Notes under the pieces: generated by a model
Told to the model about the DNA's origin: nothing
The model's database searches: none
Seen by the model: the letters and a program-made list of their open reading frames with translations, nothing else
Translations under genes and position numbers: made by a program
Shown: piece by piece, positions 4,481 through 47,673 of the stretch
Position numbering within the stretch: the stretch's first letter is position 1
How the letters are laid out: the number at the start of each line of letters is the position of its first letter
From: Eubacteriales bacterium
GTDB taxonomy: Bacteria; Bacillota; Clostridia; Oscillospirales; SIG627
DNA length: 64,000 nt
Direction: 5' to 3'
Assembly: GCA_045543495.1 (NCBI GenBank)
Contig: JAZQMO010000019.1
Location: 17,056-81,055 of the forward strand

Positions 4481-4536
4481 AAAGGTAAATCAAACTCCGA
4501 TTTTTCTTTCCGAAAATCGGCAAAAGGAGAATGACA

Positions 4537-5781
4537 ATGTTAAAAGATACCTTAAAGGAAAAAGGCTATATTCTTCCCGAAGGATTTTCCGTAGGCTTTG
4601 CCTCTGCGGTGGTCAATCCCCCCAACGGCGTCAGTATGGCAGGCTACGGCGTGGCCAATGCCAAGGTGAGACTGACCACGGAGAATTGGGAGGATCTGAA
4701 GGTTCTCTGCGCCGCTTGGTCCGACGGAGAAAATCTTACTATGACCTGTACCTTTGATACCTGTCAGATCGCCGAGAGCGTGGCAAGACCCGTGCTTCGT
4801 ATGATGGAGGAGGAGATCGGCATCCCCGAGGAAAATGTGATCTTCAACGTGATCCATACCCACGCCGCTCCCACCATGTATACCACCTCTGCCGATTGGC
4901 CCGGCGTTCCGGAGTATCAGAAAAACGTGTTTTACCCCGCCCTGCTTCAGGCCGCCAAGGAGGCGGTGAAGGATCTTGCTCCCGCTACCCTTTCTCTGGG
5001 CCGCGGCAAGACCGAGGGGCTTTCCTATGTGCGCCGCTATCTGCTCAGCGATGGCACCTACAAGACCAATCCCCGCGGAGACGATGTGCCCGTTGCACAC
5101 GAAACGAGCCACGATGAGACCATGCAGGTGGTTCGCATTCACCGTGAGGGCGCAAAGGATCTTGTTATCATCAACTGGCAGTGCCATCCCACCAGCGCAG
5201 GCGGTGCCGGTCATACCAATACCAGCCCCGACTGGGTGGGAATCCTGCGTGACCGTGTGGAGGCAGAGCTTGATGTGCACTGTATGTTCCATCAGGGCGC
5301 CGCAGGCAATATCGTAGGAAGCGGCAAGCTTCCCGGAGAAGAGGTGTTCGGCCGTGACCGCTATGTGGAGCACGGAGAAAAAATTGCCCGGGTGGCTCTG
5401 AAGATCCTCTCCTCTCCCATGGCTCCTCTTGCCACGGGTAAGGTGCAGGCCACCAAGAAAATGCTCCCCTTGCCTCGGAAGGAGGATGAGAGCACGACCC
5501 GCGATATTCCCATTTCCGCTCTGTCTATGGGTCAGCTTTCCTTTGCCACTGCGCCCTATGAAATGTTCTCTGCCAACGGAGAATGGATCAAGGCCAATAC
5601 CCCCTTTGATGTGACCTTCGTTTGTGAAAACACCAACGGGAACTACAACTACGTTCCCTCCAAGGAAAGCTATCCTCACGGAAGCTATGAGGTTCGCATC
5701 TGTCCCTTTGCCATGGGTGCCGCTGAGACCGTGGCCGAGGAGCTGGTTTCCATGCTCAAGGCTCAAAGCCAAAACGCTTAA
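4537..5781 (+). CDS. Neutral-ceramidase-like metallo-amidohydrolase, paralog 1 of 12 (cytoplasmic form, most divergent copy)
   Basis: ORF 4531..5781. ATG 4537 is better spaced from the AAAGGAGA SD. Motifs LPEGFSVGFA, NVIHTHAAP, LSYVRRY, INWQCHPTS, HQGAAGN, APYEMF, GSYEV. No signal peptide. CDS is certain; the family call rests on motif order only. Confidence 0.75.
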   Translation: MLKDTLKEKGYILPEGFSVGFASAVVNPPNGVSMAGYGVANAKVRLTTENWEDLKVLCAAWSDGENLTMTCTFDTCQIAESVARPVLRMMEEEIGIPEENVIFNVIHTHAAPTMYTTSADWPGVPEYQKNVFYPALLQAAKEAVKDLAPATLSLGRGKTEGLSYVRRYLLSDGTYKTNPRGDDVPVAHETSHDETMQVVRIHREGAKDLVIINWQCHPTSAGGAGHTNTSPDWVGILRDRVEAELDVHCMFHQGAAGNIVGSGKLPGEEVFGRDRYVEHGEKIARVALKILSSPMAPLATGKVQATKKMLPLPRKEDESTTRDIPISALSMGQLSFATAPYEMFSANGEWIKANTPFDVTFVCENTNGNYNYVPSKESYPHGSYEVRICPFAMGAAETVAEELVSMLKAQSQNA

Positions 5782-5798
5782 TCTGCAAAATCAGGATA

Positions 5799-5840
5799 AA
5801 ACACCCAAGGGTTCCCTAAAAGCCCTTGGGTGTTTTTTTG
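5799..5840 (+). terminator. Rho-independent terminator after paralog 1
   Basis: Stem ACACCCAAGGG(5801-5811)/CCCTTGGGTGT(5823-5833) followed by a T-run. Confidence 0.75.
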
Positions 5841-5934
5841 CAAAAGGAAATAATGTTCATAAAATTGCAAAAAAATAATAATTATTTTATGTAAAATCTA
5901 AGAAAAAGTGCAAATAATTCATCAAATCTGCATC

Positions 5935-5963
5935 TTGCCACAATATTTCGGGTGGGATATAAT
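5935..5963 (+). promoter_or_regulatory. Sigma-A type promoter of array unit 2
   Basis: TTGCCA (5935-5940), 17-nt spacer, TATAAT (5958-5963). Confidence 0.55.
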
Positions 5964-6004
5964 GAAGAAAAGCGGGGCTTGTTCCCGAGAAAGGACCCGA
6001 TGAA

Positions 6005-7375
6005 ATGAAACGTACTTTATCTTTGATCTTATGTCTTTGTATTCTTTGCTCTCTCGTTTCCTGCGCTTCCTCCTTGCCTGTGGAGGAAACGGTGGAGAAA
6101 ACAGAGGAAACAAAAGAAATCACTGCCGAGAAAACCGAGGAAGAAAAGGATCTCGGCCCCATCACCTTGCCCCAAGGCTTCTCGGTAGGCTGGGCAAGAA
6201 GCGATGTGACCCCCGCCAACGGCACGGCCTTGGCAGGCTACGGTGCCGCCAGCAACACCAAGAGACTCAGCAGCAGAGTGCTGGATCCCCTTCTTCTCAC
6301 CTGTACCGCCGTGTCCGACGGAGAAAATGTAGCCCTCCTCTTTTCCACCGATAATCTTTATGTCGGTCAGGCGATCTTTGAGCAGGCAGTAAAGCTGGTG
6401 GGGAAGATCTATGATATCTCTCAAAGCAATATCATTATGAATGCCACTCATACCCACTCTGCCGCTCCGCTTCATTACAGCGGCTTTGCGGGAGAGGGCG
6501 CTTATCTGAAAAAGTATTACGCCGCCGTCAAGGAGAGTGCCGAGGGTGCTCTGCGGGATCTGGAGGAGGCTGAAATCTACATTGGTTCCGCCAATACCGA
6601 AAACTTAAACTATGTTCGCAGATACGTGAATTTAGAGGACGGCTCCTATGCGGGAAAGAATCTGAACAATGCCGATCCTGCCAAAATCGGCCACGAAACC
6701 GAGGCGGATACTCTGATGCAGATCGTAAAATTTGACCGCAAGACCAAACAGGATGTGGTGCTTTGTAACTGGCAGTGCCACGTAACCGGCCCCGGCTCCG
6801 AGAGCGGGGGAGAGGTTTCCGCCGACTGGGTGGGCACCTTCCGCAAGAACATAGAGGAAAAAGCGAGCGTGCTTTTCTCTTATCATCAGGGTGCGGCAGG
6901 CAACCTTGCCGCAAACAGCGGAATTTCGGATGAGCCCAGCAATAAGGATTATTTTGAGCACGGGAAAAAGCTTTGCGCTGTCGCTATGTCTGCCATGGAG
7001 AATATGAAAAAGGTGAATTCCGGTAAGGTGCAGGCCATTATGCAGAACCATACCGCCACCTACAACACCGATTATAAGCCCGAGGGAGGCACCTTTGATT
7101 TCCTCATCAGCGGCATTTCCATCGGCGATGTTGCCTTTGCCGCCGCTCCTTACGAGATGCACGATACCAACGGAATGGAATTGAAAGCCGCTTCCCCCTT
7201 TGAGATGACCTTCGTCTGCGCTTATTCCAACGGAGTCTGGGGCTATATGGCATCCTCCGCCGCCTTTGAAAACGGCGGCTACGAGGTGGATTCCACCCGT
7301 TTCGTGAAGGGCACGGGAGAGAATGTCATTCGGGATCTGACCGGAATTCTGAATACCCTTTACCAAACCAAATAA
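6005..7375 (+). CDS. Neutral-ceramidase-like amidohydrolase, paralog 2 (lipoprotein form)
   Basis: 456 aa. Signal peptide MKRTLSLILCLCILCSLVSC with lipobox LVSC. 34-aa T/E/K-rich linker. Motifs LPQGFSVGWA, NATHTHSAP, LNYVRRY, CNWQCH, HQGAAGN, APYEMHD, GGYEV. Confidence 0.8.
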   Translation: MKRTLSLILCLCILCSLVSCASSLPVEETVEKTEETKEITAEKTEEEKDLGPITLPQGFSVGWARSDVTPANGTALAGYGAASNTKRLSSRVLDPLLLTCTAVSDGENVALLFSTDNLYVGQAIFEQAVKLVGKIYDISQSNIIMNATHTHSAAPLHYSGFAGEGAYLKKYYAAVKESAEGALRDLEEAEIYIGSANTENLNYVRRYVNLEDGSYAGKNLNNADPAKIGHETEADTLMQIVKFDRKTKQDVVLCNWQCHVTGPGSESGGEVSADWVGTFRKNIEEKASVLFSYHQGAAGNLAANSGISDEPSNKDYFEHGKKLCAVAMSAMENMKKVNSGKVQAIMQNHTATYNTDYKPEGGTFDFLISGISIGDVAFAAAPYEMHDTNGMELKAASPFEMTFVCAYSNGVWGYMASSAAFENGGYEVDSTRFVKGTGENVIRDLTGILNTLYQTK

Positions 7376-7399
7376 TCCTAAGCAAAAAGAAAAAAAGCA

Positions 7400-7432
7400 A
7401 AAAATCCGTTGCTCGGCGACGGATTTTTTTGC
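7400..7432 (+). terminator. Rho-independent terminator after paralog 2
   Basis: ATCCGT(7404-7409)...ACGGAT(7419-7424) stem followed by TTTTTTT. Confidence 0.65.
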
Positions 7433-7589
7433 TTTTTGGCTTATGAACGGAGAAAAATATTTTCCATAACAACTTTTCATTGGAATTTGTGCTTTTTTGA
7501 CTATCTTTTACAGGTAATGTGTGGTATTCTATTTTTACAGAGATCCTTGGATCCAACCGTTTTACCAAAAACAGAATTTGGGAGGAATT

Positions 7590-8984
7590 ATGAAAAAAAT
7601 CGTATCCTTAATTTTGAGCTTCGTTCTGATGCTTTCCCTCGTCTCCTGCGCTTCTTCCCTTGGGGTGGAAAGCACCGAGGAAACGAAGGGGGCCGTCGGG
7701 GAGACCGCTACGGGAGAGGAACCCGAAAAGGAAACGGGAGTGAGGAAGGACTTTACCCTGCCCGAGGGCTTTTGTGCAGGCTTTGCCAAAGAGGTGGTCA
7801 ACCCTGAAGAAGGCGTGTTTCTCGGGGGCTTTTCCGGCGTGAGCCACCGTGTCAACGAAACCACGGCAGATGATATCTATCTTTCCTGCCTTGCCGTCTC
7901 CGACGGAGAAAACGTATTCTTTTACTTTTCCATGGATTCCACTCAGATGGGCGCCACCATTGCCGAGCGGGTGGCCTCCATTGCCGAGCAGAGCTTCGGA
8001 ATTCCTGCCGATCACGTGATCATCAATGCCACCCATACCCACTCGGGCCCCGGTATGTATTCCACGGGCAGCGCAGGTATGGTGCCTTACGTGAGGGATG
8101 TTTTTTATCCCGCCGCCCGGCGCCTTATGGGAAATGCCCTGGAGGATCTTTCCGAAGCTACCCTCAAGTACGGTACCTCTGAGGCCAAGGGGATGAATTA
8201 TGTTCGCCGCTATGTTTCTCTGGAAACGGGCGCTTTTTTGGGCAAGAATCTCTCCTCGGGTCAGGATCCCGCCAAGGTGGCTCACGAAACCGAGGCCGAT
8301 TCCGTAATGCGGGTGCTCCGCTTTGTCCGTGAGGGCAAGGAGGACGTTGTCCTTTGCAACTGGCAGTGCCACCCCTGCACGGCAGGCATCGGCTCCGCCA
8401 AGGCTACCATTCTTTCCTCCGACTGGATCTCCACCCTTCGCAAGACCGTGGAGGAGACCGAGAAGGTTCAATTCATCTATATGCAGGGTGCCGCAGGCAA
8501 CCTTTCCAATAACGGCCGCATCAAGGGAGAAAAGGTGAATTCCGATTACCGCAAATTCGGCACGGAATTGGCTTCCTTCGTGTCTCTTGCCATGGAAAAC
8601 GGAAAGGAAGTTGCCACGGGCAACATTCAGGTTAAGCGTGAGAAAGTGACGGTGAATTACAGCAAGGAGTATCAGACGAATAATAATTCCTCCAAATCCC
8701 ACGCCATGTCCCTTTGGGCCATTTCCTTCGGCGGGGTCGGCATTGCCACCCTCCCCGGTGAGCTTCACGATTCTCTGGGTGTTTCTCTCAGAGAAAAATC
8801 CCCCTACGACGTGACCCTCTTCTCCGGCTATACCAACGGAACCCATGGCTACTTTGCCGCCGATTTTGCCTATGAAAACGGCGGCTACGAGGTGGATTCC
8901 TCCCGCCACGTGAGAGGCACCTCCGAAGAGATGGTGGAGAAGCTTGTGGGAATGCTTCAGGAATTGCATCAGACCAATTCCTGA
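7590..8984 (+). CDS. Neutral-ceramidase-like amidohydrolase, paralog 3 (lipoprotein form)
   Basis: ORF 7521..8984. ATG 7590 follows a GGGAGGA SD. MKKIVSLILSFVLMLSLVSC lipobox. 36-aa acidic linker. NATHTHSGP, MNYVRRY, CNWQCHPCT, MQGAAGN, GGYEV. Confidence 0.8.
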   Translation: MKKIVSLILSFVLMLSLVSCASSLGVESTEETKGAVGETATGEEPEKETGVRKDFTLPEGFCAGFAKEVVNPEEGVFLGGFSGVSHRVNETTADDIYLSCLAVSDGENVFFYFSMDSTQMGATIAERVASIAEQSFGIPADHVIINATHTHSGPGMYSTGSAGMVPYVRDVFYPAARRLMGNALEDLSEATLKYGTSEAKGMNYVRRYVSLETGAFLGKNLSSGQDPAKVAHETEADSVMRVLRFVREGKEDVVLCNWQCHPCTAGIGSAKATILSSDWISTLRKTVEETEKVQFIYMQGAAGNLSNNGRIKGEKVNSDYRKFGTELASFVSLAMENGKEVATGNIQVKREKVTVNYSKEYQTNNNSSKSHAMSLWAISFGGVGIATLPGELHDSLGVSLREKSPYDVTLFSGYTNGTHGYFAADFAYENGGYEVDSSRHVRGTSEEMVEKLVGMLQELHQTNS

Positions 8985-9039
8985 TTCCATTGACTTTGAC
9001 AAAGGGTGACCCCTATGAATCCTAATGACAGGAGATAAT

Positions 9040-10287
9040 ATGAAACAGAGCTTTTTGCTTCCTGAGGGTTTTTCGGCGGGCTTTTCCCGCAGGATCGTAA
9101 CCCCTGAAACGGGCACCAGTCTGGGGGGCTTTCCCGGTGCCAACAAGCGCCTTTCCGACACTGTAATAGACGATCTGACTCTCTCCTGTCTGGCTCTTTC
9201 CGATGGGGAAGAGGTGATCCTTCTCTTTTCCTCCGACTCCATCCATGTGGGCAAGCCCATTGCGGATGCGGTGGCAAACATTGCCCTTGAGGAGTATGGG
9301 ATCCCCGAGGAACACGTTTTGATGAACGCCACCCACACCCACTCAGGCCCCTCCCTTTACAGCGGCCGTGGGGTGGGAATTGAAAAATACACCTCCGAGA
9401 TCTATTATCCCGCCGCCAAGGCTCTGATGGGTGAGGCCCTTCGTGATCTTGCCCCTGCCCGTGTTCGGGTGGGCAGAGTGGATACCACGGGCCGCAATTA
9501 TGTGCGCCGCTATATGAATCAGGTCACGGGGGAGTATGCGGGGAAGAATATTCCCTTTCATTCCGATCCTGCCGTCTTTGAGCACGAGACCGAGGCCGAC
9601 CATGAAATGCAGGCGGTCTCCTTTGACCGAGGAGATAAAAAGGAAATCCTTCTGTGTAATTGGCAGTGCCACGCCACTCACGTGGGCAAATCCAAGGAAA
9701 CCAAGGTCTCCTCCGACTTTGTGGGAGCCTTTCGCACCGCCGCCGAGGAAAAGGGAGACATTCATTTCTTCTATTTGCAGGGTGCCGCAGGGAACGTAAC
9801 TCCCTCAGGCCGTCTGGAGGGGGACAATCGCAATGCCGACCACATCGGGCAAGGAGAAAAGCTTGCCGAGCTTTTGTATGCCGCCCGTGAGAGGGCAAAG
9901 CCCGTGGCCACGGGGAAAATAAAGCTTTGCCGCCTGACCCTTTCCGTTCCCTTCAGCCATCGCTACTGTCTGGAGGAGCATAAGCTCTTCGGCACCGCCA
10001 CCGAGCTGTATCTGTTTGCCGTTTCCCTCGGGGATCTTTGCATCGGCACCGTTCCCGGAGAATGGCACGATGTGTTGGGAATGGAGCTGAAGAAGAAAAG
10101 CCCCTATGCCGTCACTCTGGTGGGGGCGTATACCAACGGCTGCAACGGGTATTTCCCCGCCTCCTTCGCCTTTGACCACGGCGGATACGAGGTGAAGGCA
10201 TGCCGCCACGAGAGGGGTACCTCCGAAATGTTTTTGGAAACGCTGTTATCGCTTTTGAAGGAAATGTACCCGAGCCGTATGGACTGA
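9040..10287 (+). CDS. Neutral-ceramidase-like amidohydrolase, paralog 4 (cytoplasmic form)
   Basis: ORF 9025..10287. ATG 9040 follows an AGGAGA SD. Starts MKQSFLLPEGFSAGFS, with no signal peptide. NATHTHSGP, RNYVRRY, CNWQCH, LQGAAGN, GGYEV. Confidence 0.8.
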   Translation: MKQSFLLPEGFSAGFSRRIVTPETGTSLGGFPGANKRLSDTVIDDLTLSCLALSDGEEVILLFSSDSIHVGKPIADAVANIALEEYGIPEEHVLMNATHTHSGPSLYSGRGVGIEKYTSEIYYPAAKALMGEALRDLAPARVRVGRVDTTGRNYVRRYMNQVTGEYAGKNIPFHSDPAVFEHETEADHEMQAVSFDRGDKKEILLCNWQCHATHVGKSKETKVSSDFVGAFRTAAEEKGDIHFFYLQGAAGNVTPSGRLEGDNRNADHIGQGEKLAELLYAARERAKPVATGKIKLCRLTLSVPFSHRYCLEEHKLFGTATELYLFAVSLGDLCIGTVPGEWHDVLGMELKKKSPYAVTLVGAYTNGCNGYFPASFAFDHGGYEVKACRHERGTSEMFLETLLSLLKEMYPSRMD

Positions 10288-10308
10288 TCTTTCCCTGCAG
10301 CGCTTTTT

Positions 10309-10337
10309 GGGATGGGCTTTTTGCCCGTCCCTTTTTA
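10309..10337 (+). terminator. Rho-independent terminator after paralog 4
   Basis: GGGATGGGC(10309-10317)/GCCCGTCCC(10323-10331, one G-U pair) followed by TTTTT. Confidence 0.6.
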
Positions 10338-10386
10338 TATGTTCTGTGACTTTTTTTGTGTGATGGGGGATTTTTTTCTTTTTTTC

Positions 10387-10415
10387 TTGCGAAAAGGCCC
10401 GAACTGAATTATAAT
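10387..10415 (+). promoter_or_regulatory. Sigma-A type promoter of array unit 4
   Basis: TTGCGA (10387-10392), 17-nt spacer, TATAAT (10410-10415). Confidence 0.55.
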
Positions 10416-10443
10416 GGGGGTAATCTATAAGCAGGAGGCTATT

Positions 10444-11823
10444 ATGAAAAAAATAGTGAGTATCTTACTCCTTCTTTGTATTCTTCTGACCCTTTGCTCT
10501 TGCTCCTCCTCTTTGGCGGCAGAAACGGCAGGGAAAACGGAGGAAACGAAAGACAAAATCGCAACGGGAGAGAAGGGCACCGAGGAAAAGGAGCGGGAGG
10601 AAGTGACCATTCCTCAGGGCTTTTCTGTCGGCTATGCCAAGGGAGAGGTCAATCCTGCGGTGGGCACGGGGCTCGGCGGCTACGGAACGCAGAATGACCG
10701 TGTCAGCGGAAGGATCATAGACGATCTGTATCTGACCTGCACCGCCATTTCCGACGGAGAAAACACCGTTCTCATCTTCTCCGGTGACTCCATTCACGTG
10801 GCAGGCTCCACCGCCGCCAAGGTGGGAAGCATTGCAGAAAAGAACTTTGGAATTCCCGCAGGGAATATTATCATCAACGCCACCCATACCCACGCAGGCC
10901 CCGCCATTCCCAATTCCAACGCCCCCGGCATTGCTTCTTACCTGAAAAAGTATTACGCCGTGGCAGAGGAAATGATCTATCAGGCGCTTTTGGATCTGGA
11001 GAATGCCACCGTCTATGCGGGCAGCACCGTTGCCGAGGGGATGAATTATGTTCGCCGCTATGTGAATATTCAGACCGGAGAATATGCGGGGAAAAACCTG
11101 CCTGACGGCTTGGATCCCGCCGTGTACGGTCACGAAACGGTGGCAGATCCCGAAATGCAGATCCTCCGCTTTGACCGTGCCACCAAGAAAGATGTGATCC
11201 TTTGCAACTGGCAGTGCCATCCCACTACAACGGGTAGCTCTACCGGCAGCACCGTTTCCGCAGACTTTATTGCCTACTTCCGCTCTGCCGTGGAGGAAGC
11301 GGGCCATCTCTTCTCCTATCATCAGGGGGCAGGCGGAAATCTGGTTGCAGGCAGCCGTATTGCAGGGAATCAATCAAACAGCGATTATATAAAATACGGA
11401 AAGGATCTTGCCGCAATCGCTCTCGGTGCTCTGGAAAAGCTCCCTCAGGTGGAATCGGGTAAGGTGCAGGCGAAAAAATACACCTTCACCGGCACACATT
11501 CGGAGGAATACAGAAAAAAGAATAAGATCGAAGCCACCACGGAAACCTTTTCTCTTTCGGTTCTTTCCATCGGAGATGTGGCCTTTGCCACCGCTCCCTG
11601 TGAGCTGCACGATACCCTCGGTGTGGAGATCAAGACAAAGTCTCCCTTCAAGTTGACCTTTGTCTGCGGCTATACCAACGGTACCGTAGGCTATATGCCT
11701 GCCTCCTTTGCCTTTGCAAACGGCGGCTACGAGGTGGAGAGCACCCATTTTGTTCAGGGCACGGGAGAGGCGATCGTAGCCGATCTTCTTGGCAATCTGA
11801 ACGAAATTTATACAACCAAATAA
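10444..11823 (+). CDS. Neutral-ceramidase-like amidohydrolase, paralog 5 (lipoprotein form)
   Basis: ORF 10414..11823. ATG 10444 follows an AGGAGG SD. MKKIVSILLLLCILLTLCSC signal/lipobox. 35-aa linker. NATHTHAGP, MNYVRRY, CNWQCHPTT, HQGAGGN, GGYEV. Confidence 0.8.
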   Translation: MKKIVSILLLLCILLTLCSCSSSLAAETAGKTEETKDKIATGEKGTEEKEREEVTIPQGFSVGYAKGEVNPAVGTGLGGYGTQNDRVSGRIIDDLYLTCTAISDGENTVLIFSGDSIHVAGSTAAKVGSIAEKNFGIPAGNIIINATHTHAGPAIPNSNAPGIASYLKKYYAVAEEMIYQALLDLENATVYAGSTVAEGMNYVRRYVNIQTGEYAGKNLPDGLDPAVYGHETVADPEMQILRFDRATKKDVILCNWQCHPTTTGSSTGSTVSADFIAYFRSAVEEAGHLFSYHQGAGGNLVAGSRIAGNQSNSDYIKYGKDLAAIALGALEKLPQVESGKVQAKKYTFTGTHSEEYRKKNKIEATTETFSLSVLSIGDVAFATAPCELHDTLGVEIKTKSPFKLTFVCGYTNGTVGYMPASFAFANGGYEVESTHFVQGTGEAIVADLLGNLNEIYTTK

Positions 11824-11927
11824 CGGAAGCAAAGCCGCCTTTTTCAAAAGGCGGCTTCGTTACAATTTGGACTTGTTTTTTGTGCAAAAGATTGTATTTT
11901 TCTTCTGTTTTTTGTGCTTTTCACACC

Positions 11928-11956
11928 TTGCTTGATCCTTTGTTTTTGTTTATAAT
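11928..11956 (+). promoter_or_regulatory. Sigma-A type promoter of array unit 5
   Basis: TTGCTT (11928-11933), 17-nt spacer, TATAAT (11951-11956). Confidence 0.55.
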
Positions 11957-11990
11957 AGAAATATACAGGAAATCTCAACGGAGGCTTATT

Positions 11991-13367
11991 ATGAAACGAA
12001 TTCTTGCTTTGCTTTTGTGCTTATCTTTGCTGTTTTCCGTCTCCTGTGCCGCCTCTCTCCCGAATCAAACCATAGGGAAAACCGAGGAAACGAAAACCCT
12101 CCCCGCAGTGGAAAGCACCACCGAGGAGGAGAGGGAAACAGGCCCCATCCAATTGCCCCAAGGCTTTTCCGCAGGCTGGGCAAGAGAGGTGGTCAATCCC
12201 GATCAGGGTACCAGCCTGGGCGGCTGGCCCACGGCGGAAAAGAGACTCAGCGGTGCCATTGTGGACGATATTAAATTGACCCTGACCGCCCTTTCCGACG
12301 GGGAAAAGGTGTTTTTCCTCTTTTCTACCGATGCTGTGGCGGTCTCCGAAAACCTCTTTGATCAATTTGCCGCTTTGGCAGAAAAAAATCACGGGGTGCC
12401 AAAGGAGCACGTCATCGTCAACGCCACCCATTGCCATTCGGCGCCCGCTTCCTATATTTCTGCCTTGCCCGGTGTTGCAAAGTATAACAGAAAGCTCTAT
12501 TCCGTGGTGGAAAAGCTGATGGATCAGGCCCTGCGGGATCTTGCTCCCGCCACCGTTTTGGTGGGCAGAAGCAAAACGGAAAATCTCAATTACGTTCGGC
12601 GCTATGTGACCCCCGACGGCAAAACCTATCTGGGCGGCACCGCCATGGCAACCGCCTCCTCCCAATACGCTCGCCACGAGACCGAGGCGGATAACGAAAT
12701 GCAGGTGATCCGCTTTGTGCGGGAGGAGAAAAAGGATATCGTTCTCTGCAACTGGCAGTGCCATCCCACCACAATGAGCTCCGAATTCGGCACCACCGTG
12801 TCTGCGGATTGGGTCGGCCCCTTCCGTGATGCCGTGGAGCAGGATGAGGACATCGTTTTTTCCTACCATCAGGGAGCGGCGGGCAATGTTGTTCCCTCCA
12901 CCCGTATTCAGGAGGAAAAGGGAAATGGGGACTATAACCTCCACGGCAAGGCTCTGGCCGAGGTGGCAAGAGCGGCGCTTCGTGATGCCGTTCCGGTGAA
13001 AACAGGCCCCTTTTCTGCCGTGCGGGAGGGCTTTGTGGCCACCCATTCCGATGCCTACAAGAAAAAATCGGGCACCCGATCCAATACCGATACCTTAAAT
13101 CTCACCGTGCTTTCCATCGGGGATGTGGCCTTTGTCACCAACCCCTGTGAAATGCACGATACCAACGGGCAGGAGGTCAAGGCCGCATCGCCTTATGAAA
13201 TGACCTTCGTCTGCGCCTACTCCAATGGCTCCAAAAGCTACATTCCCTCTTCTCTTGCCTTCCAAAACGGGGGGTATGAGGTCAATTCCTGTCACTTCGT
13301 TGCGGGAACGGGGGAGGCCATAGTGCAAAAGCTTTTGGAAATGCTGAACAATCAACACAACGGATAA
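11991..13367 (+). CDS. Neutral-ceramidase-like amidohydrolase, paralog 6 (lipoprotein form)
   Basis: ORF 11880..13367. ATG 11991 follows a GGAGG SD. MKRILALLLCLSLLFSVSC lipobox. 35-aa linker. NATHCHSAP, LNYVRRY, CNWQCHPTT, HQGAAGN, GGYEV. Confidence 0.8.
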   Translation: MKRILALLLCLSLLFSVSCAASLPNQTIGKTEETKTLPAVESTTEEERETGPIQLPQGFSAGWAREVVNPDQGTSLGGWPTAEKRLSGAIVDDIKLTLTALSDGEKVFFLFSTDAVAVSENLFDQFAALAEKNHGVPKEHVIVNATHCHSAPASYISALPGVAKYNRKLYSVVEKLMDQALRDLAPATVLVGRSKTENLNYVRRYVTPDGKTYLGGTAMATASSQYARHETEADNEMQVIRFVREEKKDIVLCNWQCHPTTMSSEFGTTVSADWVGPFRDAVEQDEDIVFSYHQGAAGNVVPSTRIQEEKGNGDYNLHGKALAEVARAALRDAVPVKTGPFSAVREGFVATHSDAYKKKSGTRSNTDTLNLTVLSIGDVAFVTNPCEMHDTNGQEVKAASPYEMTFVCAYSNGSKSYIPSSLAFQNGGYEVNSCHFVAGTGEAIVQKLLEMLNNQHNG

Positions 13368-13380
13368 AAGGAGAATTTCG

Positions 13381-14760
13381 ATGAGGCGAATCGTAGCTCT
13401 GGTGATGGCAATTTGGCTCCTCCTGTCCCTTGTCTCCTGCGCTTCTTCCCTTGCCGTTTCCGAAACGGCGCAGGATACAACACAAAAAGGGGAGAAAACG
13501 GAAGAAAAAACCGAAGAAACAGAGGCAGAAAAGGGCCCCATCATACTTCCCGAGGGCTTTTCCGTGGGCTTTGCAAGAAAGGTCATCAATCCCGAATCGG
13601 GGACGGGGCTTGGGGGCTTTGCCAACGGCTACAGCCGCCTTTCCACCGTGGTACAGGATGATCTGATGCTCACCTGCACCGCCTTTTCCGATGGGGAACA
13701 GGTCTTTCTGTTTTATTGCTATGATATTTCCTATGTAACGAACACCTTGGTGGATTCGGTCACGGCAAGGCTTGAAGGGCTCTTTGACGGCATCACCATC
13801 CCCCCTGAAAACGTGATGATCAATACCACCCATACTCACGCCGCTCCCGCTCTTTCGGATTCCAATACCCCCGGCATCGGGATCTACTTGAAAAAGCTTT
13901 ATCCCGCCTTCTATCAGGTGGCAGAGGATGCCCTTCGGGATCTTTCCCCCGCCACGGCCGAAATGGGCGTGACCCATACAAAGAACTTAAATTACGTCAG
14001 AAGATACGTGACCCCCGACGGCAAGACCTATCTCGGCAACTGGCCCGATTTTATGGACTCTACCGAGGGGCGCCACGAAACCGAGCCTGACAACACGATG
14101 CAGCTGCTTCGCTTCCGAAGAGAAGCGGGGAAGGATGTGGTACTGTGTAACTGGCAGTGCCACCCCTGCTCCCCCGGCATCGGAACGGCAAACGGCACCA
14201 AGGTCTCCTCTGACTGGATCGGCCCCATGAGAAAGCAGGTGGAAAAGACCGAGGACGTGCACTTTGCCTTTTTCCAAGGGGCCGCAGGCAATCTTGCCTC
14301 CAATACCCGTATTCAAGGGGAACAGGACAATAAGGACTATGTGGCCAAGGGCAGAAAGCTTGCCGAGGCAGTCAGCGGCGGCCTTGGGAATATGAAACAG
14401 GTGGAAACGGGAAGGCTTGCGGCAAAGCGGATCGAATATCCTCTCACCCGCCGTCCCGATAAGGGCGGCACCACGGATACCTTCTATCTTTCCGCCTTTT
14501 CTCTGGGGGAGATCGCCTTTGCCACCGCCCCTTACGAGATGCACGATACCAACGGCGTGCAGGTGAAGGAAGATTCCCCCTTTGAAATGACCTTTCTGTG
14601 CGCTTATACCAGCGGTATGTTCAGCTACATTCCCGCTTCCTTTGCCTTTGAAATGGGCGGGTATGAGGTGGAGAAATGCTATTACGAGAAAGGAACCGGT
14701 GAGATTCTGGCAAACAGGCTCATCACGCTGTTGGAGGAAATAGATGCTTCGCAAAAATAA
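13381..14760 (+). CDS. Neutral-ceramidase-like amidohydrolase, paralog 7 (lipoprotein form)
   Basis: 459 aa. MRRIVALVMAIWLLLSLVSC lipobox. 35-aa linker. NTTHTHAAP, LNYVRRY, CNWQCHPCS, FQGAAGN, GGYEV. Starts 13 nt after paralog 6. Confidence 0.8.
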   Translation: MRRIVALVMAIWLLLSLVSCASSLAVSETAQDTTQKGEKTEEKTEETEAEKGPIILPEGFSVGFARKVINPESGTGLGGFANGYSRLSTVVQDDLMLTCTAFSDGEQVFLFYCYDISYVTNTLVDSVTARLEGLFDGITIPPENVMINTTHTHAAPALSDSNTPGIGIYLKKLYPAFYQVAEDALRDLSPATAEMGVTHTKNLNYVRRYVTPDGKTYLGNWPDFMDSTEGRHETEPDNTMQLLRFRREAGKDVVLCNWQCHPCSPGIGTANGTKVSSDWIGPMRKQVEKTEDVHFAFFQGAAGNLASNTRIQGEQDNKDYVAKGRKLAEAVSGGLGNMKQVETGRLAAKRIEYPLTRRPDKGGTTDTFYLSAFSLGEIAFATAPYEMHDTNGVQVKEDSPFEMTFLCAYTSGMFSYIPASFAFEMGGYEVEKCYYEKGTGEILANRLITLLEEIDASQK

Positions 14761-16135
14761 GATGAAACGAATCGTGTCAATCATTCTTGTTCTTTTGATG
14801 ACTCTGTCCCTTGTCTCCTGCTCCTCTTCTCTCATCGCTCCCGACACGGCGCATAAAAAAACGCAGGAAGAGGAGAAAACGGAAGAAAAAACGGTGGAAA
14901 CAGAGGCAGAAAAGGGCCCCGTGGTGCTCCCCGAGGGCTTTTCCGTGGGCTATGCCAAAAGGGCGGCCAATCCCCAAGCGGGGGTGGGAATGGGAGGCTA
15001 TTCCAGTGTGGATTCCCGCCTTTCCGAGGTGAATTTGGATGATATTATGGTCACCTGCACCGCTCTTTCCGACGGAGAAAATGTGTTTCTTCTCTTTTGC
15101 TCCGATACCCTCTATGTGGGCGAGGATATTGTGGATGCGGCGACAAAGCGGCTGGAAAAACGCTATGAGGGCATTACCATCCCTGCCGAAAACATCTTTT
15201 TCAATGCGACCCACACCCATTCCGCTCCTGCGGTGCATCTTGAGAACGCCCCCGGAATCGGGCGGTATATGAAGGTGTATTATCCCGCTCTGTACGCTGC
15301 GGCCGATGGGGCCATGCACAGCCTTTCTCCCGCCACGGCGGAATACAGCTCGGTGAACACCGAGAATTTGAACTATGTGAGAAGGTACGTCTCTCTTGAC
15401 GGCAAGACCTACATCGGCGGATCGGGCCTTCCCGGAAATCAGGATCCCGCTCTGGTTCGCCACGAGACCCAGCCCGATACCCAAATGCAGCTTTTGCGCT
15501 TCCGTCGTCAGGAGGGAAAGGATGTGGTGCTGTGCAACTGGCAGTGCCATCCCTGCTCCTCCAAGATCGGTGCGGAAAAAAGCATCTATATTTCCGCCGA
15601 TTGGTGCGGACAGATGAGAAAGCACGTGGAACAGAATCTGGGCGTGGAATTTGCCTATCTGCAGGGGGCGGGAGGCAATCTTGTGTCTTCCACCAAGATC
15701 CGCGGGGAAAAGACCAATTCCGATTATTTGCAAAAGGGAAAGGAATTGGCCGAGGTGGTAGAGGGAGCGCTGGAGAACACAAGGCTCCTTCATACGGGTG
15801 CCTTCCGAGCCCATCGGGAGTCCGTTCCTTATCCCCGCAATGCCAAGAACCCCTCGGGAGACGATACCATGTATCTTTCCGTTCTTACCATCGGGGATGT
15901 GGCCATTGCCACCGTTCCCTGTGAATTTCACGATACCCTGGGCGTTCAGGTGAAGAGCGAATCGCCCTTTCCCATCACGCTGATGTGTGCCTACACCAGC
16001 GGCTCCCACGGCTACATTCCCGCTTCCTTTGCCTTTGAAATGGGCGGGTACGAGGTGGAATCCACCCGCTACGAAAGAGGAACGGGAGAGAAGATGGTCG
16101 AGGATCTTTTGACCATGCTGCGAGAGATTCAATAG
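14744..16135 (+). CDS. Neutral-ceramidase-like amidohydrolase, paralog 8 (lipoprotein form)
   Basis: 463 aa. A GGAGGA SD lies 5 nt before ATG 14744, which overlaps the end of paralog 7 by 17 nt. MLRKNKMKRIVSIILVLLMTLSLVSC lipobox. 35-aa linker. NATHTHSAP, LNYVRRY, CNWQCHPCS, LQGAGGN, GGYEV. Confidence 0.8.
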   Translation: MLRKNKMKRIVSIILVLLMTLSLVSCSSSLIAPDTAHKKTQEEEKTEEKTVETEAEKGPVVLPEGFSVGYAKRAANPQAGVGMGGYSSVDSRLSEVNLDDIMVTCTALSDGENVFLLFCSDTLYVGEDIVDAATKRLEKRYEGITIPAENIFFNATHTHSAPAVHLENAPGIGRYMKVYYPALYAAADGAMHSLSPATAEYSSVNTENLNYVRRYVSLDGKTYIGGSGLPGNQDPALVRHETQPDTQMQLLRFRRQEGKDVVLCNWQCHPCSSKIGAEKSIYISADWCGQMRKHVEQNLGVEFAYLQGAGGNLVSSTKIRGEKTNSDYLQKGKELAEVVEGALENTRLLHTGAFRAHRESVPYPRNAKNPSGDDTMYLSVLTIGDVAIATVPCEFHDTLGVQVKSESPFPITLMCAYTSGSHGYIPASFAFEMGGYEVESTRYERGTGEKMVEDLLTMLREIQ

Positions 16136-16141
16136 ATCAAT

Positions 16142-16185
16142 GGGGAAAACTCCTGCTTCGGCAGGGGTTTTCCCCACTTTTTTTC
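16142..16185 (+). terminator. Rho-independent terminator after paralog 8
   Basis: 15-bp stem GGGGAAAACTCCTGC/GCAGGGGTTTTCCCC (one mismatch) with a TTCG loop, followed by CTTTTTTT. Confidence 0.8.
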
Positions 16186-16269
16186 GTTTTTGGAAAGCGA
16201 ACGCACAAGTTCGGCACGGATTTGTGCATTTTTATGCAAAATATTTCGGAATTTTGGTTAATTTTTACC

Positions 16270-16298
16270 TTGATTGCAGGGGGCTTTTCCGATATAGT
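16270..16298 (+). promoter_or_regulatory. Sigma-A type promoter of array unit 6
   Basis: TTGATT (16270-16275), 17-nt spacer, TATAGT (16293-16298). Confidence 0.5.
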
Positions 16299-16345
16299 AA
16301 AGACAAGCAAAAAAACTGTTTTTGACAGGGAAAAAGGAGTATTTT

Positions 16346-17608
16346 ATGATGGAAAAAATGGTAAATCAGGGGATCACTTTCCCCGAGGGCTTTTCCGCAG
16401 GCTTCGGCCGTGCGGTGGTCAATCCTCTGCCCGGTACGGGTATGGCAGGCTGGGGCAATGCGACCCGCCGCCTTTCCGACCAAGTCGTAGATGATCTGAT
16501 GGTCACCTGCACCGCCCTTTGCGATGGAAATGAGGTGGTTCTGATCTATTCTCAGGACAATGGCTTTTCCGACCGCGCCATTTACTGTCGCATTACCGAA
16601 AAGCTGATGGCGGATTACGGGATTCCCGCCTCCCACATCATCGTCAATGCCACCCATACCCACTGCGCCCCCGCTATGTCCGATTCTTCGGTCCCCGGTG
16701 TGGAGGAATATCTGACCCGCTATTACGAGGCCGTGTACCGCATCGCCCACGAGGCCCTTTTGGATCTTGCTCCCGCCGAGATCCTCTCGGGAAAGACCTA
16801 TACCAAAAATCTTTCCTACGTGCGCCGCTACCTCTCGAAGCGTGACGGCTCCTTCATCGGCAACTGGCCGCCCATTCAGTACCCCACCGAGGCTCGCCAC
16901 GAGACCGAGCCGGACGAGATGCTTCAGGTGCTTCGCTTTGTAAGAAAAGAAAAGAAGGATATCGTCCTTTGCAACTGGCAGTGCCATCCCTGCTCCGAGA
17001 GGCTTGCGGGAGAAATGAGAAGCGAGATCTCCTCTGACTGGATCGGTGTGGCAAGAGAAGAGGTGGAAAAGAGAGAGGATGTGCTCTTCTCCTTCCATCA
17101 GGGCGCTTGCGGCAATGTGGTCTCCACCACCCATATTGCAGGAGAAAAGAACAATATCAAATACCGCACCAAGGGAATGGAGCTTTGTATGGCCATTCAG
17201 GAAGCCTTGGGAGACACCGGAAAGGTAAATGCGGGCAAGATTCAGGCCGTTCAGAAGGAATTTTGCGCCAAGCGAAGCCGTGATTGGATGGAGCGCTTTT
17301 CCGCCAAGACCGATCACGAGAATCTGTTTTTGAACATCATCGCCATCGGTGATATTGCCTTTGCCACCGCTCCCTGTGAGTGGTACGACGGCTGCGGTCG
17401 CTTCGTTCGGGAAACCTCCCCCTTCAAAACCACCTTTGTTTGCGGCTATACCAACGGCTCTCACAGCTACATTCCCGCCTCCTTCTGTTGGGAAAACGGT
17501 GGGTATGAGATCAAAAAATGCCACTTTGAAAGAGGCACGGGCGAAAAGATCGCCTTGGAGCATATTGAAGCATTAAATGCGTTATACGCAGAAAGAGAGG
17601 AACTATAA
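16346..17608 (+). CDS. Neutral-ceramidase-like amidohydrolase, paralog 9 (cytoplasmic form)
   Basis: ORF 16322..17608. ATG 16346 follows an AAAGGAG SD. MMEKMVNQGITFPEGFSAGFG. NATHTHCAP, LSYVRRY, CNWQCHPCS, HQGACGN, FCWENGGYE. Confidence 0.8.
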   Translation: MMEKMVNQGITFPEGFSAGFGRAVVNPLPGTGMAGWGNATRRLSDQVVDDLMVTCTALCDGNEVVLIYSQDNGFSDRAIYCRITEKLMADYGIPASHIIVNATHTHCAPAMSDSSVPGVEEYLTRYYEAVYRIAHEALLDLAPAEILSGKTYTKNLSYVRRYLSKRDGSFIGNWPPIQYPTEARHETEPDEMLQVLRFVRKEKKDIVLCNWQCHPCSERLAGEMRSEISSDWIGVAREEVEKREDVLFSFHQGACGNVVSTTHIAGEKNNIKYRTKGMELCMAIQEALGDTGKVNAGKIQAVQKEFCAKRSRDWMERFSAKTDHENLFLNIIAIGDIAFATAPCEWYDGCGRFVRETSPFKTTFVCGYTNGSHSYIPASFCWENGGYEIKKCHFERGTGEKIALEHIEALNALYAEREEL

Positions 17609-18862
17609 ATGGATCAGATGAAAATGAAGCAGCAGGGAATTTCCATTCCCGAGGGCTTCTCCGTTGGCTTCGGCCGCAGAGGGATCAATCCCCCTCCCGG
17701 AACGGGTCTCGGAGGATGGGGCAACTCCGATGTGAGAGTGTCCGATCAGATCAAGGACGATCTGGTGCTCTCCTGTACTGCTATTTGTGATGGTGAGGGC
17801 TTTCTCCTGCTTTATTCTCAGGATACCACGCAGTCCGGCAAGTCTCTGCAGGAGACCTTTGCCGCCGAGATCTTTGAGCTTTACGGGATTCCCGCCGAGC
17901 GTGTGATCATCAACGCCACCCATTCTCACACCGCTCCCGATATTCTGTCCAAAAAAGCCGCCGGGCACGAGGCGTATCAAGCCCTGTACCGCACCGCCTT
18001 TTTTGAGGCTACGGCAGAGGCTCTTTCAGACCTTGCCCCCGCCGAGATTCTGGCAGGCAGAACCTATACCGAAGGGATCTCCTTCGTGCGCCGCTACCTT
18101 TCCAAAAAGGATGGTTCCTTCCTCGGCAACTGGCCGCCCTTTCAGTATCCCGAAGAGGCCTATCACGAGACCCGCCCCGATGAAATGCTTCAGGTCATTC
18201 GCTTTGTGAGAGAGGCGGGGAAGGATGTGGTGCTCTGCAACTGGCAGTGCCACCCCTGCTCCGAGCTTGCAGGCTCCAAAAAGAGCGATGTTTCCTCTGA
18301 CTGGGTAGGCGTTTGCCGCAGTCAGATCGAGGCCAGAGAGGATATTTTCTTCTCCTATCATCAGGGTGCCTGCGGCAATGTGGTTTCCGGCTCCAAGATG
18401 GCCAATGATTCTCCCTTGAGATACAAGGCAAAGGGACATAAGCTTTGCTTTTTCGTTCAGGAAGCCCTCCGTGGGGCAACGCCTGTGAAATCGGGCAAGA
18501 TCCGTGCCGAGAAGCACGATTTTTACGCTCCCCGCAGCCGTGAATGGATGGAGAAATTTGGGGCTGAGAAGGATCACGAGTATCTCAATCTTACCACCGC
18601 CTGCTTCGGAGACGTGGCCATTGCCACCGCTCCTAACGAGCTGCACGACACCTGCGGAAGATTCATCCGTGAGGGCTCTCCCTTTAAGATGACCTTCTTC
18701 TGTGGCTATACCAACGGCTCTCAGAGCTACATTCCCGCCGCCTTCTGCTGGGAAAACGGCGGCTATGAAGTAGGAAAATGCCACTTTGTCCGTGGTACGG
18801 GCGAGAAGCTGACCTATCATCACCTGGATCTCTTGAACGAATTTTACGAAACGAGGGACTGA
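17609..18862 (+). CDS. Neutral-ceramidase-like amidohydrolase, paralog 10 (cytoplasmic form)
   Basis: 417 aa. The ATG directly abuts the paralog 9 stop (TAAATG). NATHSHTAP, ISFVRRY, CNWQCHPCS, HQGACGN, FCWENGGYEV. Confidence 0.8.
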   Translation: MDQMKMKQQGISIPEGFSVGFGRRGINPPPGTGLGGWGNSDVRVSDQIKDDLVLSCTAICDGEGFLLLYSQDTTQSGKSLQETFAAEIFELYGIPAERVIINATHSHTAPDILSKKAAGHEAYQALYRTAFFEATAEALSDLAPAEILAGRTYTEGISFVRRYLSKKDGSFLGNWPPFQYPEEAYHETRPDEMLQVIRFVREAGKDVVLCNWQCHPCSELAGSKKSDVSSDWVGVCRSQIEAREDIFFSYHQGACGNVVSGSKMANDSPLRYKAKGHKLCFFVQEALRGATPVKSGKIRAEKHDFYAPRSREWMEKFGAEKDHEYLNLTTACFGDVAIATAPNELHDTCGRFIREGSPFKMTFFCGYTNGSQSYIPAAFCWENGGYEVGKCHFVRGTGEKLTYHHLDLLNEFYETRD

Positions 18863-18864
18863 AA

Positions 18865-24506: not shown

Positions 24507-24535
24507 ATGATAACTTCTTTTTTTGGATTTGTCAA
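24507..24535 (-). promoter_or_regulatory. Sigma-A type promoter of the riboswitch-thiT-thiN unit
   Basis: Minus strand TTGACA (24535-24530), 17-nt spacer, TATCAT (24512-24507). Overlaps the 5' end of the terL ORF on the other strand. Confidence 0.5.
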
Positions 24536-24543
24536 GTAAAAAA

Positions 24544-43709: not shown

Positions 43710-43870
43710 AGTGCTTCCTTTCTGCCGCCTCTCGGGAAAAAGAGGGGAGAGCGTGTTTGTTTTTACAGATAATCTATTGTACCAAAATGGATCGGATTTT
43801 GCAATACCCTCCACCCCTCAAAAGGGGAAAAACTTTTCAAATACGAACGTCGTCACCTCCTTTCGCAAAA

Positions 43871-47659: not shown

Positions 47660-47673
47660 ACAGCCTCCTTGCT

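What the first reader, a model, noticed from the sequence alone, without database searches (positions are those of the whole stretch)
6005..16135. Half of the paralogs are lipoproteins on a constant-length acidic tether and the other half are cytoplasmic
Paralogs 2, 3, 5, 6, 7 and 8 start with a signal peptide and lipobox (LVSC, LVSC, LCSC, SVSC, LVSC, LVSC). A Thr/Glu/Lys-rich low-complexity linker follows, running up to the first conserved motif (L/I)P(E/Q)GF. Counted by hand, the linkers are 34, 36, 35, 35, 35 and 35 aa. Their sequences differ (for example EKTEETKEITAEKTEEEKD versus QDTTQKGEKTEEKTEETEAEK). Paralogs 1, 4, 9, 10, 11 and 12 have only 6-12 residues before that motif and no hydrophobic leader. 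The same catalytic core is therefore deployed on both sides of the membrane. The surface forms appear to be held at a fixed distance from the lipid anchor. This suggests a two-compartment pathway or a spacing requirement relative to the wall or membrane.
Basis: seen in the sequence. Interest (0 to 1): 0.72.

Follow-up and report, generated by a model that had tools for sequence, protein, structure and literature searches.

The report
Ceramidase-like paralog array, lipoprotein and cytoplasmic forms
Twelve tandem copies of a small ceramidase-like zinc hydrolase in an uncultured gut Clostridium are split between six predicted membrane-anchored lipoproteins on a ~35-residue floppy acidic tether and six leaderless cytoplasmic forms; the equal tether length is real here but is not a rule in related genomes.

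Summary
Twelve + strand paralogs (4531-21369) share 36-60% core identity. Six (P2, P3, P5-P8) have a leader that meets the PROSITE-type lipobox rule. Their Cys-to-(L/I)P(E/Q)GF linkers are 34, 36, 35, 35, 35 and 35 aa, with net charge -4 to -7. AlphaFold predicts this segment to be disordered. The other six have in-frame stops 12-44 codons upstream and no hydrophobic leader.

The core is the catalytic domain of neutral ceramidase. Foldseek gives E 1e-27, and the Zn ligands and catalytic His/Tyr are invariant. The C-terminal domain is absent.

"Both sides of the membrane" is supported as a prediction. "Fixed distance" is not supported as a rule:
- Close relatives have linkers of 32-49 aa, mode 35.
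- Two other tandem arrays of equal divergence span 26-33 and 29-42 aa.
- Orthologues with 78-90% identical cores differ by 3-9 aa.
- Among 115 lipoprotein representatives the range is 2-45 aa.

Acidic charge is kept better than length. The leader and tether behave as a portable N-terminal module. It was gained or lost at least four times, and short DNA tracts of it have been exchanged between neighbouring paralogs. This is an ordinary arrangement in an uncharacterised, strongly expanded enzyme family.

The parts
4531..5781 (+). P1, leaderless paralog (416 aa), the most divergent copy (36-41% to the others)
   Evidence: PF04734 E 1.7e-12
6005..7375 (+). P2, lipoprotein paralog. Leader 6005-6064 (Cys20); acidic linker 6065-6166 (34 aa)
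7590..8984 (+). P3, lipoprotein paralog. Leader 7590-7649 (Cys20); linker 7650-7757 (36 aa)
9040..10287 (+). P4, leaderless paralog (415 aa). Its nearest relative is a lipoprotein (P0053), so the leader was lost
   Evidence: sister to a lipoprotein in 100/100 bootstraps
10444..11823 (+). P5, lipoprotein paralog. Leader 10444-10503 (Cys20); linker 10504-10608 (35 aa)
11991..13367 (+). P6, lipoprotein paralog. Leader 11991-12047 (Cys19); linker 12048-12152 (35 aa)
13381..14760 (+). P7, lipoprotein paralog. Leader 13381-13440 (Cys20); linker 13441-13545 (35 aa). Modelled by AlphaFold2
   Evidence: (pLDDT 93.8; blocks 21-40 at 46-47, block 41-50 at 66)
14744..16135 (+). P8, lipoprotein paralog. 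Leader 14744-14821 (Cys26; Cys20 if the start is 14762); linker 14822-14926 (35 aa)
16346..17608 (+). P9, leaderless paralog. First gene of a tightly packed leaderless block P9-P12 (gaps of 0-2 nt)
17609..18862 (+). P10, leaderless paralog
18865..20121 (+). P11, leaderless paralog
20122..21369 (+). P12, leaderless paralog. Nearest window relative is lipoprotein P6 (50%)
13486..13575 (+). Probable short gene-conversion tract in P7 (codons 36-65: second half of the linker plus LPEGFSVGF). Partner tract in P8 is at 14867-14956
   Evidence: 84-89% DNA identity including synonymous sites, against roughly 50-65% in the core further downstream
14867..14956 (+). Partner tract in P8 of the probable P7/P8 conversion
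7399..7429 (+). Terminator-like hairpin after P2
10309..10331 (+). Terminator-like hairpin after P4. P3 (lipoprotein) and P4 (leaderless) may be one transcript
16141..16176 (+). Strong terminator-like hairpin (16 bp stem) after P8. It separates the lipoprotein block P5-P8 from the leaderless block P9-P12

Best explanation
The locus is a tandem array of 12 diverged paralogs. Each encodes a compact (about 400 aa) zinc amidohydrolase with the catalytic fold of neutral ceramidase and no C-terminal domain.

The copies differ in a portable N-terminal address. Six carry a Sec / signal-peptidase-II lipoprotein leader followed by about 30 disordered, acidic, Thr/Glu/Lys-rich residues. They are predicted to be lipid-anchored on the outer face of the cytoplasmic membrane of a spore-forming monoderm Clostridium. 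Six have no leader and stay in the cytoplasm.

The address was gained or lost several times in the family. In relatives it is replaced by secretory leaders with dockerin or dockerin-like modules.

The near-equal tether length in this window has three likely causes:
1. Descent from one lipoprotein ancestor with a tether of about 35 aa.
2. Loose stabilising selection on 'long enough, flexible and negatively charged'.
3. Occasional short-tract gene conversion between neighbouring copies.
It is not a precise molecular ruler.

Shown here: gene structures, lipobox rule, predicted disorder, fold, conserved metal site, distribution of linker lengths, repeated switching, mosaic DNA identity.

Inferred: actual lipidation and localisation, amidase activity and substrates (N-acyl amide lipids or related compounds), and division of labour between outside and inside copies.
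For: Gene structure and N-termini.

Fold and active site:
- The profile of the 12 copies hits human and Pseudomonas neutral ceramidase (4WGK E 6e-14, 2ZWS 1e-9).
- HTH aligns to His194/His196, NWQCH to His303, the invariant Glu386 to Glu540, and Tyr416/Tyr428 to Tyr579/Tyr591. These residues are invariant in 12 and in 111 sequences.
- The AF2 model has pLDDT 93.8, a leader helix at residues 2-18 and low confidence over residues 21-50.
- Foldseek against the PDB finds only ceramidases, E 1e-27 to 1e-25, TM 0.69-0.71.

Monoderm context: dpaA/dpaB, hrcA and carD lie next to the array. Relatives are Oscillospiraceae/Eubacteriales MAGs.

Repeated switching:
- At least 4 state changes occur in every one of 100 bootstrap trees (median 6).
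- P4 is sister to a lipoprotein in 100/100.
- Secretory-leader forms with a dockerin or dockerin-like module exist in relatives.

Linker length is not fixed.

Charge is kept: 99% of 86 homologue linkers and 85% of 115 representative linkers are net negative.

Conversion:
- P7/P8 codons 36-65 are 84-89% identical in DNA against roughly 50-65% in the core further downstream.
- In array L009 one pair has linker DNA 88% identical against core 66% and leader 55%. Another pair has leader 87% against core 57%.
Against: - Inside this window four of the six linkers share only 9-40% gapless identity, and their DNA identity is no higher than in the core. Recent conversion therefore explains only P7/P8.
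- The tight spread (SD 0.63 aa) is in the lowest 4% of comparable sextets, so some real length constraint in this lineage is not excluded.
- In the close clade the median length difference does not grow with core distance, which fits stabilising selection.
- No dedicated signal-peptide predictor could be run, and position -1 is Ser, the least common choice.
- No substrate evidence was obtained.
Confidence: 0.7

Rival explanations
1. Molecular-ruler reading. The tether length is selected to hold the catalytic domain at a defined height above the membrane or within the wall. The optimum would be set by the envelope of each organism.
For: - The window linkers are 34-36 aa, and only 4.1% of comparable random sextets are as tight.
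- The mode is 35 in the nearest clade (19 of 61), and the median difference does not grow with divergence.
- Other arrays have their own modal lengths: 31 in L009 and 38-40 in L010. L010 is longer in 7 of 7 orthologous pairs.
Against: - Within those arrays lengths span 26-33 and 29-42 aa.
- The close clade has outliers at 45, 48, 49 and 125 aa.
- P8 and its 90%-identical orthologue differ by 3 aa.
- The family range is 2-45 aa.
- The genome-specific lengths go with genome-specific linker sequences and mosaic DNA identity. That points to conversion, so the 7 pairs are not independent.
- A disordered chain does not fix a distance; it only caps it.
Confidence: 0.15
2. Two-compartment pathway. The outside copies cleave a large or lipidic substrate, and the inside copies finish the imported products of the same pathway.
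For: - Both forms persist side by side in at least two syntenic genomes: 12 copies here, and 3 lipoprotein plus 5 leaderless copies in L055.
- Leaderless P9-P12 and lipoprotein P5-P8 form separate packed blocks divided by a strong terminator.
Against: - No transporter or accessory gene is conserved beside the arrays.
- The same one-step hydrolase on both sides is not a pathway.
- Distant family members in the fetched loci are mostly single, leaderless copies.
- Lipoprotein and leaderless copies interleave in the tree, as expected for independent relocalisation.
Confidence: 0.1
3. Annotation artefact. The leaderless copies are truncated or decaying genes, or the lipoboxes are chance matches.
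For: - The strict Gram-positive G+LPP pattern is not met.
- Pfam scores of several copies fall below the gathering cut-off.
Against: - All 12 ORFs are intact with invariant catalytic residues.
- Orthologues of the leaderless copies in other assemblies are also leaderless.
- Every one of 86 leader-bearing homologues keeps the Cys after an uncharged h-region.
- In-frame stops lie just upstream of the leaderless starts.
Confidence: 0.03

Closest known systems
Neutral ceramidase (Pseudomonas aeruginosa PaCD, PDB 2ZWS/2ZXC; human ASAH2, PDB 4WGK; Pfam PF04734)
   Same: - Same catalytic-domain fold (Foldseek E 1e-27, TM 0.7).
- Same His/His/Glu/Tyr zinc site and catalytic His/Tyr by alignment.
   Different: - About 400 aa instead of 630-690.
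- The C-terminal domain is absent.
- Sequence identity is only 14-16%.
- Most copies score below the Pfam gathering cut-off, and far below the NCBIfam equivalog cut-off.
- Substrate is unknown.
- Present as 8-14-gene tandem arrays in anaerobic gut Clostridia.
Disordered N-terminal linkers of bacterial lipoproteins (e.g. E. coli RcsF and Pal; bioRxiv 10.1101/2021.01.05.425367; PMC12826056)
   Same: A long (more than 22 residues) unstructured segment lies between the lipidated Cys and the folded domain. A minimum length and the disordered character matter more than the sequence.
   Different: Those cases concern Lol sorting or outer-membrane contacts in diderms. Here the host is a monoderm, where a tether would only give reach into the wall zone. 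No experiment exists for this family.
Ser/Thr-rich extracytoplasmic disordered regions of Firmicutes membrane proteins (PMC12041528)
   Same: Low-complexity, hydroxyl-rich disordered segment on the outside of a Gram-positive membrane protein.
   Different: Here the segment is Glu/Lys/Thr-rich and strongly acidic. Glycosylation was not tested. A GT2-GtrA gene in the window (42609-43814) is only a lead.

Membership tests
Bacterial lipoproteins (Lgt/LspA substrates) | Positively charged n-region followed by an uncharged hydrophobic h-region | tested here: met
   K/R lies within the first 7 residues. Maximum 12-residue hydropathy is 3.0-3.5 in P2, P3 and P5-P8, against 0.6-1.3 in the other six. 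AF2 predicts a helix at residues 2-18.
Bacterial lipoproteins (Lgt/LspA substrates) | Lipobox ending in an invariant Cys at position 15-35 (PROSITE PS51257-type rule) | tested here: met
   All six pass, with Cys at 19-26. The Cys is kept in 86/86 leader-bearing homologues.
Bacterial lipoproteins (Lgt/LspA substrates) | Strict Gram-positive pattern G+LPP (position -1 is Ala or Gly) | tested here: not met
   Position -1 is Ser in all six. In homologues it is Ala 50, Ser 35, Gly 1, so Ser is a family-wide alternative.
Bacterial lipoproteins (Lgt/LspA substrates) | Diacylglyceryl modification and SPase II cleavage shown experimentally; lgt/lspA present in the genome | not testable with these tools
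   No dedicated predictor or experiment was available, and only 64 kb of the genome was seen.
Neutral/alkaline ceramidase (PF04734; EC 3.5.1.23) | Catalytic-domain fold | tested here: met
   Foldseek hits to 2ZWS, 2ZXC and 4WGK at E 1.7e-27 to 3.7e-25, TMq 0.69-0.71. No other credible PDB fold was found.
Neutral/alkaline ceramidase (PF04734; EC 3.5.1.23) | Zn ligands His, His, Glu, Tyr and catalytic His/Tyr | tested here: met
   These residues align to His194/196, His303, Glu540, Tyr579 and Tyr591 of 4WGK. They are invariant in 12 and in 111 sequences.
Neutral/alkaline ceramidase (PF04734; EC 3.5.1.23) | Score above the curated family cut-offs | tested here: inconclusive
   Pfam: 4 of 10 copies exceed the gathering score of 32.1 (19.6-47.3 bits). 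NCBIfam neutral ceramidase equivalog: 21 bits against a cut-off of 1200.
Neutral/alkaline ceramidase (PF04734; EC 3.5.1.23) | C-terminal ceramidase domain | tested here: not met
   The proteins end about 400 aa after the first core motif. The Pfam match covers only profile positions 1-238 of 509, and no C-terminal domain hit was found. TM normalised to the target is only 0.50.
Neutral/alkaline ceramidase (PF04734; EC 3.5.1.23) | Hydrolysis of the N-acyl bond of ceramide | not testable with these tools
   This needs enzymology.

The most novel reading that the evidence does not exclude
Tether length is tuned per organism for a whole paralog family. The modal lengths are about 35 aa in this genome, 31 in the L009 genome and 38-40 in the L010 genome, and orthologues shift together. 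The disordered acidic tether would then act as an envelope-matched spacer, placing ceramidase-like amidases at the right depth in the Gram-positive wall. The exported and cytoplasmic copies would together harvest N-acylated lipids such as dietary, host or Bacteroidota sphingolipids.
Probability: 0.12. Interest if true: 0.6.

Novelty: new member of a known kind. Interest (0 to 1): 0.3.

Why it matters
If the predictions hold, uncultured gut and rumen Clostridia carry very large sets of small ceramidase-like amidases. This window has 12, a single array elsewhere has 14, and the loci fetched from one MAG hold at least 26. The organisms send these enzymes to the cell surface, to dockerin-type complexes or to the cytoplasm simply by swapping an N-terminal module.

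That would point to an unrecognised capacity to cleave N-acyl amide compounds in the gut. It also gives a clean natural series for asking what a lipoprotein tether needs: length, charge and disorder.

The specific claim of a constant-length ruler would be of moderate interest, but the comparative data do not support it as a rule.

Tried and rejected
- The exact-sequence lookup of P7's contig found nothing on record. Cluster look-ups gave no names or accessions.
- The genome-contig scan did not return the window's own genome. The best hit was 44% identical.
- Literature searches for bacterial or gut neutral ceramidase and for PF04734 returned only host-enzyme or unrelated papers.
- Neighbour genes in four related loci showed no conserved partner.
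- The N-terminal double 'GDLDxNG...DA..LL' modules in relatives look like dockerins but did not hit Pfam Dockerin_1. They are called dockerin-like only.
- A Brownian-motion reading of length change was examined. Root-mean-square differences roughly follow the square root of distance across the family. Within the close clade the medians saturate. Heavy tails prevent a firm choice between the two.
- A gapless DNA comparison of L010 cores was spoiled by indels and discarded.
- Gene conversion as a general explanation for this window was rejected. Only P7/P8 show a tract.
- No other lipoprotein exists in the 64 kb to serve as an internal comparison.

Full report
**What is there**

The window carries twelve + strand paralogs from 4531 to 21369. 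Start codons were chosen by Shine-Dalgarno context. Core identity between copies is 36-60%. P9-P11 form a tight group (58-60%), P7/P8 are 56% identical, and P1 is the outlier.

The array lies next to hrcA, carD and the dipicolinate synthase genes dpaB/dpaA. The host is therefore a spore-forming monoderm. The relatives found are uncultured Oscillospiraceae, Eubacteriales and Faecousia MAGs from animal and human guts. A related assembly has the same flanking genes followed by eight copies, three lipoprotein and five leaderless (L055). The array is therefore old but variable in copy number.

**Check of the observation**

- P2, P3, P5, P6, P7 and P8 begin with leaders ending in LVSC, LVSC, LCSC, SVSC, LVSC and LVSC.
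- The distance from the residue after the Cys to (L/I)P(E/Q)GF is 34, 36, 35, 35, 35 and 35 aa.
- All six meet a PROSITE PS51257-type lipobox rule. None meets the stricter G+LPP pattern, because position -1 is Ser. In 86 leader-bearing homologues that position is Ala 50, Ser 35, Gly 1, and the Cys is always present.
- The linkers are 46-59% Thr+Glu+Lys, with net charge -4 to -7.

P1, P4 and P9-P12 have 6-14 residues before the motif. They have no hydrophobic stretch, and in-frame stops lie 12-44 codons upstream. No other ORF in the 64 kb has a credible lipobox leader.

An AlphaFold2 model of P7 (pLDDT 93.8) has a leader helix at residues 2-18. Confidence is low over residues 21-50 (46-66), and the core from about residue 51 is confident. 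The truly floppy part is therefore about 30 aa. 'GPII' just before the motif belongs to the fold, as do the equivalent residues of the leaderless copies.

**What the protein is**

Pfam gives weak matches to the first half of the neutral/alkaline ceramidase N-terminal domain. Four of ten copies score above the gathering cut-off. A profile of the twelve copies hits human and Pseudomonas neutral ceramidase (E 6e-14 and 1e-9). The alignment places:
- HTH on His194/His196;
- NWQCH on His303;
- QGAAGN on the GDVSPN-type loop;
- the invariant Glu on Glu540;
- two invariant Tyr on Tyr579 and Tyr591.

These residues are invariant in all 12 copies and in a 111-sequence alignment. Foldseek against the PDB finds only neutral ceramidases (E 1e-27 to 1e-25, TM 0.69-0.71 on the query).

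The proteins lack the C-terminal domain and score far below the NCBIfam equivalog cut-off. They are best described as catalytic-domain-only, ceramidase-like zinc amidohydrolases of unknown substrate.

The wider family is large. There are 18,990 cluster representatives at E<=1e-3 and 1,870 at E<=1e-30.

**Is the tether length fixed?**

Several comparisons say no.
- Among metagenomic relatives the nearest clade (61 lipoproteins) has linkers of 32-49 aa plus one of 125, with mode 35 (19 of 61).
- Equally diverged non-window pairs differ by 3.2 aa on average, and 34% differ by 1 aa or less. Random sextets are as tight as the window in 4.1% of draws.
- Close orthologues already differ. P8 and P0005 (core distance 0.10) have 35 and 32 aa.
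- Two other tandem arrays with the same median core identity (50-51%) have linkers of 26-33 aa (L009, mode 31) and 29-42 aa (L010, mostly 38-40).
- Reciprocal-best orthologues between those two arrays have 54-87% identical cores. L010 is longer by 3-11 aa in all seven pairs.
- Among the best 150 representatives of the whole library, 115 are lipoproteins. Their linkers are 2-45 aa (plus 94, 125 and 203), with median 26 and interquartile range 14-33.

Negative net charge is kept better than length. It holds in 99% of 86 homologues and 85% of 115 representatives.

**Why the window is so uniform**

The core itself has few indels: 0.009 gap events per column per pair, or 0.33 expected per 35 aa. 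Most linker pairs keep 20-40% identity in register. Much of the uniformity is therefore plain inheritance from a lipoprotein ancestor with a tether of about 35 aa.

Within the close clade the median length difference does not rise with core distance. That fits loose stabilising selection around 33-37 aa.

Short-tract gene conversion also contributes.
- P7 and P8 are 84-89% identical in DNA over codons 36-65, synonymous sites included, against roughly 50-65% in the core further downstream. P8's linker resembles P7's in that half more than it resembles its own 90%-identical orthologue.
- In L009 one pair has linker DNA 88% identical, against core 66% and leader 55%. Another pair has leader 87% against core 57%.
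- The genome-specific lengths in L009 and L010 go with genome-specific linker sequences. This points to concerted evolution and makes the 7-of-7 shift non-independent.
- For the other window pairs, leader and linker DNA identity is no higher than in the core.

**The address is modular**

In a neighbour-joining tree of 204 cores, most of the distant members, which are mainly single-copy, are leaderless. Leaderless and exported forms interleave inside the expanded clade.

In 100 bootstrap trees of 94 taxa at least four switches are needed every time (median 6). Leaderless P4 is sister to lipoprotein P0053 in 100/100.

Relatives also carry other architectures:
- a signal-peptidase-I type leader plus an N-terminal double 'GDLDxNG...DA..LL' module, dockerin-like by eye but without a Pfam hit;
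- a true C-terminal type I dockerin (P0111, E 3.5e-11);
- long extra N-terminal domains.

**Mechanism proposed**

The exported copies are lipid-anchored at the outer membrane face. A flexible, negatively charged chain of about 30 residues gives them reach into the wall zone and keeps them off the anionic surface. The leaderless copies act in the cytoplasm. The many diverged copies probably differ in substrate.

Terminator-like hairpins after P2, P4 and P8, together with abutting reading frames, suggest separate transcripts for P5-P8 (all lipoproteins) and P9-P12 (all leaderless).

No transporter or accessory gene is conserved beside the arrays. A linked two-compartment pathway is therefore unsupported.

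**Comparison with the known, and verdict**

Disordered N-terminal linkers are a known feature of lipoproteins, for which a minimum length and disorder matter more than sequence. Ser/Thr-rich extracytoplasmic disordered regions are described in Firmicutes. Enzyme families with both exported and cytoplasmic paralogs are commonplace.

The finding is therefore a correct observation with an over-read interpretation. Dual localisation is a sound prediction. A constant-length ruler is not supported. The less ordinary aspects are the scale of the expansion of this uncharacterised ceramidase-like family and the mosaic evolution of its N-terminal module.

Noticed in passing
L009 1-21404 (JAZPZL010000136.1); also L001, L002, L007 and L012 from the same MAG: One Eubacteriales MAG has 14 tandem copies in a single 21 kb stretch. 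At least 26 family members lie across the five loci fetched. Another MAG (SVQO01, L010) has 12 in a row. The family is massively expanded in some uncultured gut Clostridia.
   Followed up: partly
L001:6003-7640 (+), L004:11392-12945 (+), L005:6191.. (+), L007:8546-10276 (-), L008:13427-15178 (-); P0111: Some relatives replace the lipobox and tether with an SPase-I type leader plus an N-terminal double EF-hand, dockerin-like module. This module has no Pfam hit. P0111 has a true C-terminal type I dockerin.
   Followed up: partly
L009 genes at 18228 and 19860; 13702 and 7074: DNA identity is mosaic between tandem paralogs. One pair has linker 88% against core 66% and leader 55%. Another has leader 87% against core 57%. 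This suggests short-tract gene conversion confined to the 5' module.
   Followed up: partly
window 13486-13575 and 14867-14956: P7 and P8 share a roughly 90-nt stretch of 84-89% DNA identity, including a 24-nt identical run in low-complexity codons. It sits in genes that are otherwise about 60% identical.
   Followed up: yes
window 4552-5772 (-), 7608-9338 (-), 14777-16177 (-), 16265-17563 (-), 18844-20091 (-): Long antisense ORFs (400-576 aa) lie opposite almost every paralog. They were taken to be a by-product of codon composition and not genes. They were not analysed further.
   Followed up: no
window 24523-25914 (+): An ORF with phage terminase large-subunit domains (Terminase_3 and Terminase_6N) lies between a thiamin pyrophosphokinase gene and a QueG-like gene. 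No other phage genes were looked for.
   Followed up: no
window 42609-43814 (-) and 46226-47794 (-): There is a GT2 glycosyltransferase fused to a GtrA/DPMS membrane domain, and a sortase-domain protein. The GT2-GtrA type makes lipid-linked sugars that are used to glycosylate Ser/Thr-rich disordered regions in streptococci (PMC12041528). This is a possible lead for the Thr-rich tethers.
   Followed up: no
L058 (GCA_052837085.1, JAZMQT010000008.1) 1-21377: In a related genome a further lipoprotein copy sits between citrate lyase / fumarate hydratase genes and the glutamate mutase / methylaspartate ammonia-lyase genes. This hints that these organisms ferment amino acids.
   Followed up: no
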